A stretch of DNA of 64,000 nt, taken from contig CP068257.2 of the NCBI GenBank assembly GCA_009914755.4, positions 36,448,001 through 36,512,000 on the forward strand, in the 5' to 3' direction. Below, one piece after another: positions 1 to 53,039 of the stretch. A model generated the notes under the pieces. The model was not told the DNA's origin and made no database searches. It worked only from the letters and a program-made list of their open reading frames with translations. The translations under genes were made by a program, and so were the position numbers. How positions within the stretch are numbered: the first letter of the stretch is position 1; the number at the start of each line of letters is the position of its first letter. The stretch comes from the human T2T-CHM13v2.0 reference genome, Homo sapiens.

Positions 1-19
1 TCTTACATGGTGTCAGGAG

Positions 20-228
20 AGAGAGCAAGGTGGGGGAACTGTCACACACTTTTAAACCATCAGATCTCCTGGGAACTCATTCACTATCATGAGAACGGCA
101 TGGGGGTAACCATCCCTATGACCCAGTCACCTCCCACCAGGTCCCTCCCCGACACATGGGGATTACAATTCAACATGAGATTTGGGTGGGGACACAGAGC
201 CAAACCATATCACAGTGATACCACAATA
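20..228 (-). mobile_element. MaLR (THE1-like) LTR fragment, 5' part truncated by window edge
   Basis: Reverse complement of the THE1-type LTR start (…gccaaaccatatca / gggattacaattcaacatgagatttgggtggggacacagagcc); the same motif recurs at 43.7 kb. Family assignment is from memory of the consensus. Confidence 0.5.
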
Positions 229-45959: not shown

Positions 45960-47035
45960 CAAAATGGATAAAATATTAATACATCAATTCAAAAATTCAA
46001 GAAACCCTAAGTAGCTCAGCAAACCCCAAGTAGGGTTTAAGAAAAAAGAAAATCATACTAAGGTACATTACAGTTAAACTGCTAAAACTTAGCAGATGAG
46101 CTCAAGTTTCTTTTCTGAAGCAAATTCATATCCTTAAATAGCCTTATTAAATAATAAATATTTAAAAATTTTAAAACTACTTATTCATCATAAGAAATTA
46201 AGAAAATAATAAAATCTAAGATTCACAGGAGATTGGGTTACCAAAAATAAATGCTGAAATTAAATTATCAAAAAAAGGGAAAACAGTTAAATTGATAAAT
46301 TAATAAATCTTAAAGGTGGTTATTTTAATAATAAAAACCCAACAAAAGACGTGTATTTACTTTCAATGTTTATTATTTTAATTAAATAAATTTGATTCAA
46401 ATTAAAAAGCACAAATGTGAGAGTGAAAAAATGACATGACTACAGATTCAAAGGAAACTACAAAAATAAGAGAAACTGCAAAAATATGCCTTCCATAAAT
46501 AAATTTGATAGTTTTAATGAAAAGTATAATTTCTGGCCAAATATAAATTATAATATTTTACTTAAGAAGTAGAATATCTGAATAGGCCTATTACTATGCA
46601 TATTACTAAAAGGATTATTCAGAAATTTTAAAATTTACTACAAGATTTTACAAGATTAGGTTGTATCACATAAAATTACTTTATGCTATATATAATAGAG
46701 TACATATGCATAATAATTGGCTATATTTGAATCTCAATTTATTTTTGACATTAAATTAACTTGTTACCAAGCTTGAGAAAGCACTACAACCATGCAACTA
46801 AAAAAATAGCACATGCGACACTCTCACTTATGAATATAGGTGCAAAAATTCTAAAGGAAATTCTAACAAATCAATTTCAATGCTAAATAAAAATAAGGCC
46901 ATACCATTTTAAGTAGAATTATTCTAGGTATGCAGACTTACTTCACACTAGGCAATCTATCAGTTGAATTGATATAGCTACAGTTCAAAGGGAAAACTAC
47001 ACAATTATTTCTACCCATGCTGAAAACACATTAAT
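45960..47035 (+). mobile_element. Old L1 fragment in sense orientation (ORF2 5' region), no poly-A
   Basis: A-rich. '…ggtgcaaaaattctaaaggaaattctaacaaatcaatttcaatgctaaataaaaataaggcc…' resembles the L1 ORF2 'gatgcaaaaatcctcaacaaaatactagcaaaccgaat' region. Confidence 0.45.
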
Positions 47036-47039
47036 AATT

Positions 47040-48340
47040 AAGATACATTTAAAAATTAATAAGCTTTATGTTTTAGAGTAGTTTTAGCTTTACAGATATA
47101 TTGAGTAGAAAATACAAAGTTCCCATATACTCCCTCTCCCTACCACAGTTTCCTCTATTATCAATATCTTGCATTGATGTGGCACATTTATTATAATTGA
47201 TGAGCCAATATTGATACACTATTATTAACTAAAATCAATAGGTTACTTTAGGTTTCACTCTTGGTATTTACATTCTAGGGATTTTGACAAGTGTATAGTG
47301 ATGAGTACCCACCACTAAAGTATCTTACGTAATAATAGTTTCACTGCCTTAAAAATCCCCCTTGTACTACCTATTCATCTCTCCCTGTCCTCCAGTCCCC
47401 AGCAACCACTCATCTTTTTACTGTCTCCAAAGTTTTGCCTTTTCCAAAACGTCATAGAGTAGGAATCATACAATATGTAGCCTTTTCAGATTGGCTTCTT
47501 TCACTTAACAACATGTGTTTAAGGCTCCTCCATGTCTTTTTGTGGCTTGACAACTCATTTCTTTTCATTACTAAATAGTATTCCATTGTATGGATGTGGA
47601 TGTACCATAGTTTATTTGTCCAGTCACCTATTAAAACACATCTGGGTTGCTTCTAAATGTCGGTAGTTAAGAGGAAAGCTGCTGTAAACATTCATGTCCA
47701 GGTTTTTTTTTCTGTATGTAAGTTTCTAATTCATATGGGTAAATATGAGGGAGTGTTACTACTGAGTAGGAGTATGCCTAATTTTGTAAGAAACTGCCAA
47801 AATCACTTTCCAAGTGGCCATACCATTTTGCATTCCCACTAGCAATGAGTAAGAGGATCTGCTGCACAACATTCTCATCAGCATTTGGTGGTGTTTATGT
47901 TTGGGATTTTGGTCATTCTAATGGGTGTGTAGTAATATCTCGTTTTAATTTGAAAGTCTCTAATGATGTTGAGCATCTTTCCACAAGCTTATTTTCCATC
48001 TGTATATCTTCTTTGGTAAGGTATCTGTTGAGATCTTTTGCCTATTTTTTAATTGGACTGTTTGTTTCTTACTATTGAGTTTTAAGAGTTCTTTGTATAT
48101 CTTAAATACTAGCCTGCATCTGACATATGTTTCACAAAATCCTCCCAGTCTATGGCTTATTTTTTCATTCTCTGAACAGTGTCATTTACAGAACAGAAGT
48201 TTGAAATTTTAACAAAGTCCAACTTATCAATTTTTTTATGGATTGTGCTTTTGGATTTAAGAAGTCATTGCCAAATTCAAGGTCATTGAAATATTCTCCT
48301 ATTTTACCTTCTCAGCATTTTACAAGATATATTTTTAATT
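47040..48340 (-). mobile_element. Old L1 (L1M-type) 3' end and ORF2 C-terminus in antisense orientation
   Basis: 'aagctttatgttttagagtagttttagctttacagatatattgagtagaaaatacaaagttcccatatactccc…' is the antisense of the L1M 3' terminus, followed by '…ctaaatagtattccattgtatggatgtggatgtaccatagtttatttgtccagtcacct…' and '…ccataccattttgcattcccactagcaatg…tcattctaatgggtgtgtagtaatatctcgttttaatttg…'. Confidence 0.75.
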
Positions 48341-48589
48341 AAAAACAAATAGATGCTCTGAATCAGTCATGGTCCCCACAAGGATTTTTAATAGAAACTG
48401 TAAGGAAAAGACAACTTACAATGGGCTTGGTAAGGTTAAGGAAATATATAAGGGATAATGCTTGCAACCATGATAAGCTGTCATCACCCAGGTCAAAAGG
48501 AAAAAAGGGAGGAGCTAGTGCTGGGACCCAGTGTGGAGGCTATGGTGAAGAAGCTATTATTGTGAACTCCACTACTACTATAGGTTTCA

Positions 48590-49332
<743 letters not shown>

Positions 49333-49340
49333 TTTGGTGG

Positions 49341-49360
49341 TCCATATGGAGACCTCTCCC
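49341..49360 (+). promoter_or_regulatory. Primer-binding-site-like sequence immediately 3' of the 5' LTR (best match tRNA-Ile, CpG-decayed)
   Basis: 'tggtggtccatatggagacc' compared with the complement of the tRNA-Ile 3' end 'TGGTGGCCCGTACGGGGATC'. The four mismatches are all C>T or G>A at former CpG positions. Confidence 0.4.
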
Positions 49361-50140
49361 CTATTCACTGTTTTTTCTCTTCTCCAACTCCAACCTCTTA
49401 GTGGACAGCATCCAAGCCTGGAGACATCTGATGGCCCCCCACTGCAGCTACTCCCTGGTGGATCAGAAGGTCCCAGTGGAAAGAAGTTTGACCGTCACTG
49501 CCCGATCGAGTGAGAGTTTAGAGTTTACTTTCCTTTCCCGTCTTCTGGTGGACAAACTCTAGTATCCCTCTAGCAGCTGATGGCCACTGGCCAGGGCCAT
49601 TCCCTGGTGTGGCCTAAAGGCCAAGGAGTGAACCAGGTTTGGCTGCTTTGCTTGGAAGGGAGGATGGCTCTCTCCTAACCCTTCTGGTCAAAAGTCCCCA
49701 GTCCCTACATGCAGCACAATAGGCAGCGGCAGCTTGACCAGGGCAAACGCACACACATTTTGGGGAACTCAGACCCCGTCCTTCTCACTCTAAATTTCTC
49801 CTGTGAAGAAAGCCAGCCATCCTTTTCTGGACATTTTAAGCAACATGATCCCAAATAGCACCAGAACAGTGAGCCTTCCCTCAACCTTTGCCCCTTATAC
49901 CTGGATTCAGCACCCAGTATAATTCATACGTGGACTGACCTGGGGCTGCTCACCCTGTGTTCATCCATCCAGTGTAAGGCTCTCATGCTGGGAGGTCCTT
50001 TCTAATAGGTGGGATGCCCCTTTGGAAAGTGCCTCTCAAGGCTCCTCAGTGGACATAAGTGGAACCCCCTTTCCTTGGCTGGAGGCCCCAAGAGAAATTG
50101 TGGTTTGTGTCCCCAGTAGACATTCTTTTCCAATCCCCCC

Positions 50141-50338
50141 ATGGGACAAAGCCCTTCCATTCTCTCAGACTCACCGATGGGCTGCATTCTAAAACATTGG
50201 GATAAACTTGACTCCCAGACTCTCAAAAGGAAACATCGAATTTTCTTGTGTAATACAGCATGGCCACTTTATAAACTTCCAGATCAGGAATCCTACTGGC
50301 TTCCAAATGGGACCTCTGCCCCCAGTAGTATTTTATAG
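50141..50338 (+). pseudogene. Retroviral gag N-terminus (matrix) remnant, class I HERV-like
   Basis: ORF MGQSPSILSDSPMGCILKHWDKLDSQTLKRKHRIFLCNTAWPLYKLPDQESYWLPNGTSAPSSIL*. The N-terminal Gly after Met and the …CILxxWD…DxQTL(K/R)KKxxIFFC(N/S)TAWPQYxL…W(L)PxNGT… pattern are recalled from HERV-H/W/ERV9-group gag matrix sequences. Confidence 0.65.
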
Positions 50339-50439
50339 GTTGACCTCTTTGGTCATAATTCTTCTAAACGGCTTGAGATTCCTTATATCTGAGGTTGTGT
50401 AACTCTTTCTAAGTTTGCTCTCCTCTCCCTTACATGGTT

Positions 50440-50640
50440 CCTTCCTTTACTAGGACAGCTGCATTTATACTTCTACTTCTCCTCTTCAGTCCTTTGTCTC
50501 TTTAATTTACTGGTTAAATTTGTTTCTTCCAGAATGTAGCAATTCCACAGCAAACTCCTAATGATGCAAGGATATCAGCCAATCACCCTCAGAAAACCCC
50601 ATGAATCTCCTCTAGACTCACTAGATATCAATTCCATATT
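50440..50640 (+). pseudogene. Retroviral env C-terminal (TM cytoplasmic tail) remnant
   Basis: Frame-2 translation …LLGQLHLYFYFSSSVLCLFNLLVKFVSSRM*…KLLMMQGYQP…SPLD resembles the syncytin/HERV-W-group env tail …GPCIFNLLVNFVSSRIEAVKLQMEPKMQS…RRPLDRP. Confidence 0.5.
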
Positions 50641-50839
50641 AACACGCTCTTTCTTCCTGAGTTCTATCCTCCAGCAGCATTTAATAGACTAAGTCCCATA
50701 ACTCAGGACAATAACCCACAGGGTCCCCTAACAGACCGATAATCACAGGTAGGGCCCACACTGTGCCCACAGTCAGCAGGAAGCAGTTGGAAGATAAGAC
50801 CTCCATACCAATGCCAAAGATTTGTCATTGTTGTTCTGT

Positions 50840-51225
50840 CAGCGGGGAACATGGAGTCCTGGTAAGTTAATAGATACAAGAAAAGGGCTCTAGCTGGCAG
50901 GAACAGGAATGAGGATTGGGGAGAGCCACTGTTCTAAGAGATGGCTGACAAGCCATTTTTCTGAGAAACACCTAACCACAAACAACCTACTTGCACAACA
51001 TCCTGTTCCCAAATACCTTGTTCCACAGGTAGCCCCAGCAGCATGACCCTATCTGTACATAGCCTCTCCAGCATAACCTTATCAAACTTCTCTGCTGTGC
51101 TGCCTGTTGCTCTCTTGTATCTTTGTACTTTCTCTAACAAATCTGACTTTCTTAACCCACAACTGTCTTGGTAAATTCCTTTACTGCCTGTAACACCAGC
51201 CCCAGCCTATCACACCTGTGACAGA
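50840..51225 (+). mobile_element. 3' LTR of the degenerate ERV
   Basis: Direct repeat of the 5' LTR: 'ggcaggaacagga…gagagccactgttctaagagatggctgacaagccatttttctgagaa…cttgcacaacatcctgttcccaaataccttgtt…ctgtcttggtaaattcctttactgcctgtaacaccagccccagcctatcacacc'. Confidence 0.7.
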
Positions 51226-51469
51226 TGGAGAGGATGAAGTACCTTTACTTCTCTCTCCTCACCCTCAATAGCATGCCAGTGATCCTTGCTGGCCAAACAC
51301 AATCAGAGGGCAGCCAGCAAGGGAGCCTGGGGGCTGCTGTCTGCATGGGTGATCATCCTGGGGCACAGGCAGAGCCAACATGAGTAGGCTATCCCTGTGA
51401 GAGAGGGCACATGGAGCATGAGGACCACAGCTCTTTGTGTAACCAAAAATTAGTGTTCCACACTCTAGA

Positions 51470-51642
51470 CTCTTGCAGACCAAGGGTTGAAGCTGAGCTC
51501 TAGCACTCATTGGAAAGTTGATGTCTTTAAGCCTCTGCATTTTATGTGTAATTAGGATTAATAACAGTGCTACATTATAGATATTAAGATGACTATTTAT
51601 ATTAAATGTTTGTGAAGTATTAATGAGTGCTTAGTAAATGCT
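51470..51642 (+). mobile_element. MIR 3'-end fragment
   Basis: '…taattaggattaataacagtgctacattatagatattaagatgactatttatattaaatgtttgtgaagtattaatgagtgcttagtaaatgctag' resembles the MIR tail '…ggattaaatgagataatgcatgtaaagcgcttagcacagtgcctggcacatagtaagcgctcaataaatg'. Confidence 0.45.
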
Positions 51643-52142
51643 AGCTGCTATCACTACTGCTGCCACTACTATCAAAACTACTACCATTACTACTACTAAT
51701 AACATAACTACTATTGTCACTACTATTACCACTACCATTAGTACTACCACCACTATCATCACTACCATCACTACTAATACTATCATTACCACTACTATTA
51801 CCATTACCACGACTATCATTACTACTACTACCACCTCCACCATTACTACTAATGCTATCATTACTACTACTGCTTCTATAATTACTACTCCTACTCCTAC
51901 CATTACTACTACTAGTAGTATCACCATTACTACTACTACTATCATTACTATTACCACCACCATTACTACTATCATTACTACTACTACCACCACCATTACT
52001 ACTACTGCTGTCATTACTACTACTGCTACTATTTACTCCTACCGTTACTACTACTACCACCACCACCATTACTACTACTATCATTGCTACTATTACTACT
52101 GCCATCATTACTATTACTACTATTAGTTTAGTCATTATTATC
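51643..52142. repeat. 500-bp imperfect trinucleotide array, (TAC)n/(ACT)n with CAT/CAC/TGC variants
   Basis: 'ctgctatcactactgctgccactactatcaaaactactaccattactactactaataacataactactattgtcactactattaccactaccatt…' read directly. This generates the 127-184-aa artefactual ORFs (poly-V/I/M, poly-T/I, poly-S/N). Confidence 0.9.
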
Positions 52143-52660
52143 AGAGGCGAGGAGAAGCAGGCAGCATAACCAAGAACATAAGTATTATTTCTCAATATGA
52201 GACAGAATCTCTATATTAAATTAATAGCCAAAGCCATACCCAGGAATGAAATATTTACATGTTCTCACTGAAACCAAGAACCAAATAACCAGAGGATTGC
52301 TACCATCATTATCATTGAATGTTCTAGAAATTTTAGCCAACATATTAAGATATGCAACATTAGGAAAGAGAAAAAGTTTACCTTTTTTGGTTAACATTTA
52401 CAAAATATGATGGTTCTCTGCCAAGAAAATCACTCCCCCATTTAAAAATTAAGTGGCTAAACACAAAATGAATGTATAAAATTTAACGGTTGTTCTGAAA
52501 ACTAGGATAAAACTATTCATAATATTTAATGAAGATAATTTTCCACTTACAATAGCAACACAAACTATTAAGTGCCTACATAGCTTTATATATAATTTTG
52601 CAAACAATATAAAGGCTAGTAAAAAATAAAAACAAAAAACTTATAACTACATTAAGAAAA

Positions 52661-52850
52661 CTGGGCACAGTGGCTCATGCTGGTAATCTCAGAACTTTGG
52701 GAGGCTGAGGCAGGAGGATCGTTTGAGGCCAGGAGTTGGAGACTAGCCTGGGCATCATTGCAAGATCACATTTTTACAAAAAAAAAAAAAAATAGGCACG
52801 CATAGAGGCATGTGCCTGTAGTCTGTTTACTTGGGAGGCTACAGGTAGCT
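52661..52850 (+). mobile_element. Partial, diverged Alu (left monomer + start of right arm)
   Basis: ctgggcacagtggctcatgctggtaatctcagaactttgggaggctgaggcaggaggatcgtttgaggccaggagttggagactagcctgggcatcattgcaagat…(A)n…catgtgcctgtagtctgtttacttgggaggct. Confidence 0.7.
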
Positions 52851-53039
52851 AGACTACAGTAATGGTAGTAGTAGTCATGGTAGTAGTAGCAAAAATGACA
52901 TTGGAAAAATGTCGATTTTTTCCAAATTCATTTATAGGATTAACACAATTGCACTTAAACTTCCACTGAGATTTATTATTAAATGTGTTCAAGTAAAACT
53001 AAGATTCATCTAGAAGAATGAATTTATAAGTAGAGCTCA

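What the first reader, a model, noticed from the sequence alone, without database searches (positions are those of the whole stretch)
49341..49360. Primer-binding site looks like tRNA-Ile eroded purely by CpG deamination
'tggtggtccatatggaga' differs from the tRNA-Ile complement 'TGGTGGCCCGTACGGGGA' at four positions. Every difference is C>T or G>A within an original CpG (gCCCGtaCGggg -> gTCCAtaTGgag). That is the signature of methylation-driven decay rather than a different tRNA. A tRNA-Ile PBS, if real, would be a non-standard pairing for this gag type: the CNTAWP-type gag matrix is recalled (from memory) for the HERV-H/W/9 group (PBS His/Trp/Arg) rather than for HERV-I-like elements that use tRNA-Ile. 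It is also a small-scale illustration that CpG decay can be used to reconstruct ancestral functional sites.
Basis: partly seen in the sequence, partly recalled or inferred. Interest (0 to 1): 0.5.

Follow-up and report, generated by a model that had tools for sequence, protein, structure and literature searches.

The report
Decayed tRNA-Ile primer site of ERV
This is the worn-out primer-binding site of an old, internally deleted endogenous retrovirus; it best matches tRNA-Ile, but only two of its four changes are CpG decay, so it is an ordinary genomic fossil.

Summary
The 18-mer TGGTGGTCCATATGGAGA is real. It lies at 49335-49352, about 6 nt upstream of the reported coordinates. It starts 3 nt (TTT) after the terminal CA of a 5' LTR and 789 nt upstream of a gag start (MGQ...), which is the position of a retroviral primer-binding site (PBS).

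It matches the tRNA-Ile(AAT/GAT) complement TGGTGGCCCGTACGGGGA at 14 of 18 positions. All four differences are C>T or G>A. Under a decay model tRNA-Ile beats every other tRNA by more than 10^5. This 18-mer also ranks first of the 2373 TGG-started 18-mers in the window.

The claim that every change lies in an original CpG is wrong. Only G10>A and C13>T are CpG sites. C7>T (GCC) and G16>A (GGG) are not. Two non-CpG substitutions fit neutral decay at the rate seen in the LTR pair, which is 81% identical.

The gag matrix is W/H-like: 48% identical to HERV-W Gag, with no significant match to HERV-I. However, Ile-type PBSs in HERV-W and MER84-group proviruses are already published, and PBS type is known to be labile.

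The exact Repbase/Dfam family could not be named with these tools. Verdict: an ordinary, already-understood feature of low interest.

The parts
48609..49331 (+). 5' LTR, about 415 bp of LTR sequence. It starts TG and ends CA, carries TATAAA and AATAAA, and is interrupted by a later Alu.
   Evidence: 81% identical to 50852-51223. Homology stops at the terminal CA in both copies.
48644..48953 (+). Alu inserted into the 5' LTR after the provirus integrated. It is not part of the retrovirus.
   Evidence: Alu repeat families D2/D3/D5/D8. CpG o/e is 0.75 against 0.15 for the ERV. The 3' LTR lacks it.
49332..49334 (+). TTT spacer between the LTR and the PBS.
   Evidence: Sequence.
49335..49352 (+). 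Primer-binding site TGGTGGTCCATATGGAGA, 14/18 to the tRNA-Ile(AAT/GAT) 3'-end complement.
   Evidence: The reference Ile PBS comes from PMC1084362. Similarity to tRNA-Ile stops after 18 nt, with 6/18 in the next 18. No tRNA gene is present.
49353..50140 (+). 5' leader (untranslated), 788 nt.
   Evidence: It lies between the PBS and the gag ATG.
50141..50395 (+). gag matrix remnant (MGQSPS...CILKHWDKLDSQTLKRKHRIFLCNTAWPLYKL...EIPYI). It has two in-frame stops.
   Evidence: ORF 50141-50338. 48% identity to HERV-W Gag MA, E=3e-22.
50420..50600 (+). env TM C-terminal remnant (membrane span plus LCLFNLLVKFVSSR...). Everything between gag MA and this point is deleted.
   Evidence: Translation. 35-37% identity to the env C-termini of several gamma-like HERVs.
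50839..50851 (+). Degenerate polypurine tract (CAGCGGGGAACA) just upstream of the 3' LTR.
   Evidence: Sequence. The role is inferred from position.
50852..51223 (+). 3' LTR.
   Evidence: Aligned to the 5' LTR at 81% identity.

Best explanation
The 18-mer at 49335-49352 is the primer-binding site of an ancient, internally deleted gammaretrovirus-like (class I) endogenous retrovirus. The element reads 5' LTR - TTT - PBS - leader - gag MA remnant - [deletion] - env TM tail - PPT - 3' LTR. When the virus was active, the 3' terminal 18 nt of host tRNA-Ile(AAT/GAT) annealed here and primed minus-strand DNA synthesis. Since integration the site has drifted neutrally. Both CpGs decayed (G10>A, C13>T), as did almost all CpGs in the element. 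Two further non-CpG transitions (C7>T, G16>A) accumulated at the background rate. Shown here: the position, the best-fitting tRNA, the mutation contexts and the gag/env/LTR anatomy. Inferred: that tRNA-Ile was really used, that all four changes post-date integration, and an age of roughly 45-90 Myr.
For: The LTR pair is 81% identical and its homology ends at CA, 3 nt before the 18-mer. The gag start MGQ... lies 789 nt downstream in the same orientation. An env TM tail and a purine tract precede the 3' LTR. The Ile PBS sequence is confirmed in the literature. The 18-mer matches Ile at 14/18 with four C>T/G>A changes, and the next best tRNAs reach 12/18. The decay-model log10 likelihood is -4.22 for Ile, against -9.54 or lower for any non-Ile tRNA. 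The 18-mer ranks 1st of 2373 TGG-18-mers in the window and is the only one with 14 or more matches plus deamination-only mismatches. Similarity to tRNA-Ile ends after 18 nt, as expected for a PBS and not for a tRNA pseudogene. Element CpG o/e is 0.15. About 1.3 non-CpG substitutions are expected in the 14 non-CpG PBS positions, and P(>=2)=0.37. Published Ile-type HERV PBSs carry the same two CpG decays (TGG)TGGCCCATATGGGGA.
Against: No second copy of the same family could be retrieved, so the family's ancestral PBS is not directly known. 14/18 alone is not rare: it occurs for 0.34% of TGG-18-mers. No target-site duplication was found (AGCA vs GATG), so it is inferred, not proven, that the two LTRs belong to one integration. 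Seven of 8 entries checked against the published PBSs agreed, and Met differed at its last base.
Confidence: 0.85

Rival explanations
1. One reading: an Ile PBS in which every change is methyl-CpG deamination, so the ancestral site can be rebuilt from CpG logic alone.
For: All four changes are C>T or G>A, and two of them (49344, 49347) are in the two CpGs of the Ile complement.
Against: C7 is followed by C and G16 is preceded by G in TGGTGGCCCGTACGGGGA, so neither is a CpG. Reversing CpG decay alone gives TGGTGGTCCGTACGGAGA, which is not the Ile complement.
Confidence: 0.02
2. The PBS belonged to another tRNA (elongator Met, Val-TAC or Ile-TAT, each 12/18) and decayed further.
For: These reach 11-12/18 matches.
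Against: They need 6-7 changes, including transversions. Their likelihood is at least 10^5-fold lower than Ile-AAT under rates taken from the LTR pair.
Confidence: 0.04
3. One or both non-CpG differences (especially G16>A) were already present in the infecting virus or family lineage, and are not post-integration decay.
For: A MER84-group provirus in Vargiu 2016 Table S1 (chain 1359) has (tgg)tggcctatatggagagta, which shares ATATGGAGA including A16.
Against: Established retrovirology holds that the PBS is re-copied from the tRNA at each replication cycle, so mismatches tend to be erased. A single shared transition in a G run can be coincidence. Membership of this element in the MER84 group is untested.
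Confidence: 0.1
4. Chance resemblance: the true PBS is unrecognisable and this TGG-18-mer merely looks like Ile.
For: 8 of 2373 TGG-18-mers in the window reach 14/18 or more to some tRNA, for example position 8 to Leu-CAG at 15/18.
Against: The probability is about 0.003 for the single 18-mer at the canonical offset from the LTR end. It is the only one with purely deamination-type mismatches and has the top likelihood in the window.
Confidence: 0.03

Closest known systems
HERV-W (HERV17/LTR17) proviruses with Ile-type PBS (Grandi et al. 2016; Vargiu et al. 2016, chains 1857, 3910, 755, 3683, 2838)
   Same: The gag matrix is W-like: 48% identity, with CILxxWD..QTLxxK..IFxCxTAWPxY and EIPY(I/V)Q shared. 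The spacer is TTT. The Ile-type PBS carries the same two CpG decays, TGGTGGCCCATATGGGGA.
   Different: 48% MA identity is too low for the same group. The LTR is about 415 bp, against 690-730 bp for the 5' LTRs of the W chains listed. LTR divergence is higher at 19%.
MER84/MER83 group (Vargiu taxorder 10530; MER4I-type class I ERVs 'related to HERVW/HERV17')
   Same: Chains 1359 and 1508 carry low-scoring Ile-type PBSs, and one has ATATGGAGA as here. Their LTR divergence is 19-24%, and one 5' LTR is about 373 bp. The env tail of MER84 chain 3405 is 35% identical, with LCLF..L.KF.SSR and MQ.YQP shared.
   Different: No MER84/83 LTR, PBS region or MA sequence was available for direct alignment. 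The env-tail similarity is no better than to HERV-E-like or HERV-H tails.
HERV-I / RTVL-I / RRHERV-I (HERV15, LTR15), the classical tRNA-Ile HERV
   Same: It also has an Ile-type PBS. The consensus is TGGTGGCCCAGACAGGGA, also preceded by ..GCAACATTT(C).
   Different: Its gag MA is of the MLV/ERV3 type (YCEIDWPAF), and similarity is not significant (E=0.5). LTR plus leader share nothing beyond the PBS junction: score 23, against a shuffle maximum of 28.
HERVIP10F (HERV-IP)
   Same: Ile/Pro-type PBSs are recorded in chains 1060 and 6108.
   Different: It belongs to a different supergroup (HERVIPADP). No sequence was available here for comparison.

Membership tests
Retroviral primer-binding site | Lies 2-5 nt downstream of the terminal CA of the 5' LTR | tested here: met
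   The LTR pair alignment ends at CA 49331, then TTT, then the 18-mer at 49335.
Retroviral primer-binding site | An 18-nt complement of a host tRNA 3' end, starting TGG (CCA end) | tested here: met
   14/18 to tRNA-Ile(AAT/GAT) with four transitions. It ranks 1 of 2373 TGG-18-mers in the window.
Retroviral primer-binding site | Complementarity stops after 18 nt, so it is not a tRNA gene or pseudogene | tested here: met
   The next 18 nt match at 6/18. ARAGORN finds no tRNA in 47000-53000.
Retroviral primer-binding site | Upstream of gag, on the same strand, within an LTR-flanked unit | tested here: met
   The gag ATG is at 50141, followed by the env TM tail, PPT and 3' LTR downstream.
Retroviral primer-binding site | Actually primed by that tRNA during replication | not testable with these tools
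   The element is a dead relic, so this rests on inference from sequence only.
HERV-I / HERV15 (LTR15) | LTR15-type LTR and leader | tested here: not met
   Local alignment to the Vargiu HERVI consensus gives only the 23-nt PBS junction. The score of 23 is within the shuffle range.
HERV-I / HERV15 (LTR15) | HERV-I/ERV3-type gag matrix | tested here: not met
   BLASTP E=0.5 to the HERVI consensus MA, against 3e-22 to HERV-W.
HERV-W (HERV17) | Close gag identity and an LTR17-type LTR of about 0.7-0.8 kb | tested here: not met
   MA is only 48% identical. The LTR is about 415 bp, against 690-730 bp 5' LTRs in W chains. LTR17 sequence was not aligned directly.
MER84/MER83 group | MER84/MER83 LTR and MER84-int gag/env | tested here: inconclusive
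   Only the env tail of chain 3405 could be compared (35% identity, not discriminating). The similarities in PBS, LTR size and LTR age come from Table S1 rows only.
Complete provirus from one integration | 4-bp target-site duplication flanking the LTRs | tested here: not met
   AGCA precedes the 5' LTR and GATG follows the 3' LTR. At 19% LTR divergence the duplication may be eroded, or the LTRs may derive from recombination.

The most novel reading that the evidence does not exclude
The element may belong to a poorly characterised old class I ERV lineage, with a W/H-like gag, a roughly 415-bp LTR and possibly a place in the MER84/83 group. The lineage as a whole would have used tRNA-Ile. That would add another independent primer switch within the W/H/MER4 clade, and the published PBS call for that group ('k, r?') would then be wrong.
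Probability: 0.15. Interest if true: 0.2.

Novelty: already known. Interest (0 to 1): 0.08.

Why it matters
It matters little. It is a clean small example of two known points: a PBS decays like any neutral sequence (CpG first, then ordinary transitions), and PBS type is a poor taxonomic marker for HERVs. The practical lesson is that reversing CpG decay alone does not recover the ancestral site here. The published RetroTector motif for Ile (tggcccatatgggga...) already contains the same two CpG decays.

Tried and rejected
Several searches and comparisons led nowhere.
- Pfam scan of the gag MA and env tail found no family.
- The word-indexed protein search with the MA found no candidates.
- A search for relatives in IMG/VR by protein found none. 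The PBS pattern there gave one hit in a giant-virus MAG, which I did not examine and took to be chance.
- A 21-mer conserved in both LTRs (CCTGTTCCCAAATACCTTGTT) was searched in the bacterial/archaeal genome collection and in JGI metagenomes, hoping for human contamination. It gave 0 hits in each.
- Exact k-mers from the LTR, gag and env were searched in the Vargiu 2016 consensus file and gave no hits. That file is truncated, and the MER84 representative lacks the 5' LTR, PBS and MA.
- RRHERV-I/HERV15 was considered as a 'W/9-like Ile family' from memory. It was rejected because Vargiu places it in HERV-ERI, and its gag and LTR do not match.
- A tRNA pseudogene or SINE origin was rejected.
- APOBEC3G-type editing could explain G16>A (GG>AG), but one site cannot be tested.

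Full report
**Observation.** The window is primate-type DNA with Alus and L1 fragments. The string tggtggtccatatggaga lies at 49335-49352. The coordinates in the finding (49341-49360) are shifted about 6 nt downstream.

**Anatomy.** Two direct repeats are 81% identical over 376 aligned columns. They are 48609-49331, interrupted by a younger Alu at 48644-48953, and 50852-51223. Homology stops in both at a terminal ...CA. No similarity continues downstream of either copy or upstream of the TG start. These are the LTRs of one small provirus.
- After the 5' LTR come TTT and then the 18-mer.
- A gag ORF starts 789 nt further on at 50141 (MGQSPS...CILKHWDKLDSQTLKRKHRIFLCNTAWPLYKL...). It can be followed through two stops to about 50395.
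- The sequence then jumps to the membrane-span and cytoplasmic tail of a gamma-type env TM (LCLFNLLVKFVSSR...).
- A degenerate purine tract and the 3' LTR follow.

The element is therefore 5' LTR - PBS - leader - gag MA - [large deletion] - env tail - PPT - 3' LTR, and the 18-mer sits exactly where a PBS should be. No 4-bp target-site duplication is recognisable (AGCA vs GATG). That the two LTRs come from one integration is therefore inferred from the arrangement.

**Which tRNA.** TGGTGGCCCGTACGGGGA is printed as the tRNA-Ile PBS in PMC1084362 Table 2.
- I scored the 18-mer against complements of the 3' ends of 42 human cytoplasmic tRNA species. Seven of 8 entries cross-checked against published PBS strings agreed, and Met differed at its last base.
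- Ile(AAT/GAT) gives 14/18. The next best (elongator Met, Ile-TAT, Val-TAC) give 12/18.
- I built a decay model from the LTR pair's own substitution spectrum. Per lineage it uses about 6% non-CpG transitions and 3% transversions, with high CpG loss. Under it, log10 likelihood is -4.22 for Ile and -9.54 or lower for any non-Ile tRNA.
- As a null, all 2373 TGG-started 18-mers in the window on both strands were scored. Eight (0.34%) reach 14/18 or more to some tRNA, so 14/18 alone is not rare. This 18-mer has the highest likelihood of all, and it is the only one whose mismatches are all C>T/G>A.
- Complementarity to tRNA-Ile ends after 18 nt (6/18 in the next 18), and ARAGORN finds no tRNA gene. 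This fits a PBS and not a tRNA pseudogene.

**The CpG claim.** The Ile complement has two CpGs, C9-G10 and C13-G14.

| PBS position | Window coordinate | Change | Context | CpG? |
|---|---|---|---|---|
| 7 | 49341 | C>T | GCC | no |
| 10 | 49344 | G>A | CGT | yes |
| 13 | 49347 | C>T | ACG | yes |
| 16 | 49350 | G>A | GGG | no |

Half of the changes are therefore CpG decay and half are not. This is what neutral decay predicts.
- The element's CpG observed/expected ratio is 0.15, so losing both CpGs is expected.
- The LTR pair differs by 44 transitions and 24 transversions at 370 non-CpG columns.
- That predicts about 1.3 substitutions in the 14 non-CpG PBS positions, with P(>=2)=0.37.
- LTR K2P distance is 0.21-0.23, which corresponds to roughly 45-90 Myr depending on the rate used. 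The age is an inference.

**Gag type and the 'non-standard pairing'.**
- The MA is 48% identical (E=3e-22) to the HERV-W Gag printed in PMC10297909.
- The HERV-I/LTR15 consensus MA (YCEIDWPAF type) is not significantly similar (E=0.5).
- The HERV-I LTR and leader share only the PBS junction with this element.

The pairing is nevertheless not new.
- Vargiu et al. 2016 state that PBS usage is 'relatively unstable'.
- Their PBS table lists the RetroTector Ile motif as tggcccatatggggatt(c/g). This is the Ile PBS read from its second TGG, and it carries the same two CpG decays.
- Such PBSs occur in chains of taxorder 10310 (HERVW by their Table 4), in HERVIP, and in the MER84/83 group.
- Grandi et al. 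2016 count 4 Ile-type PBSs among 111 HERV-W elements.
- MER84-group chain 1359 has (tgg)tggcctatatggagagta, which shares ATATGGAGA with this element. That group has LTR divergence of 19-24% and is described as related to HERV-W. It is the best lead for the family, but I could not test it. The available MER84 representative lacks the LTR, PBS and MA, and its env tail is no more similar than other gamma env tails.

**What could not be done.** No Dfam or RepeatMasker resource and no primate genome were available. Protein and DNA searches of the accessible collections returned nothing useful. The family name and the family-level ancestral PBS therefore remain open.

**Verdict.** This is a genuine but ordinary relic: the PBS of an old, deleted class I ERV, best explained as a tRNA-Ile PBS (confidence about 0.85). 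It has decayed neutrally, with two CpG and two non-CpG transitions. The 'purely CpG' reading is wrong, and the 'non-standard pairing' is already documented for related groups. Interest is low.

Noticed in passing
window 48644-48953: An Alu with a poly-A tail is inserted inside the 5' LTR. Its CpG o/e is 0.75 against 0.15 for the surrounding ERV, so it is much younger than the provirus.
   Followed up: partly
window 51634-52130: A roughly 500-bp imperfect array with 3-nt periodicity (TAC/CAC/CAT/CTG units, spacing 9-12-15) lies about 400 bp 3' of the provirus. Its origin was not examined.
   Followed up: no
window 48598-48609 and 50841-50851: A purine-rich run precedes both LTRs (GCAAGAAGAGCA before the 5' LTR, GCGGGGAACA before the 3' LTR), and no target-site duplication is present (AGCA vs GATG). 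The 5' LTR might derive from a rearranged or tandem structure and not from a simple integration.
   Followed up: partly
window 8-25: TGGTGTCAGGAGAGAGAG matches the tRNA-Leu(CAG) PBS complement at 15/18. No LTR context was checked. It was used only as an example of how often such matches arise (8 of 2373 TGG-18-mers reach 14/18 or more).
   Followed up: no
literature: Vargiu 2016 Table S1/S6 (hg19 chains 1857, 3910, 755, 3683, 2838): Several chains under the HERV-W taxorder carry a clean Ile-type PBS (TGG)TGGCCCATATGGGGATTC and not the Trp/Arg type. This looks like a true primer switch and not random decay, although Grandi 2016 attribute atypical PBSs to accumulated substitutions.
   Followed up: partly
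window 47400-48340: An L1-like fragment lies directly upstream of the provirus region. A short stretch at 48357-48608 of unclear origin lies between it and the LTR start.
   Followed up: no
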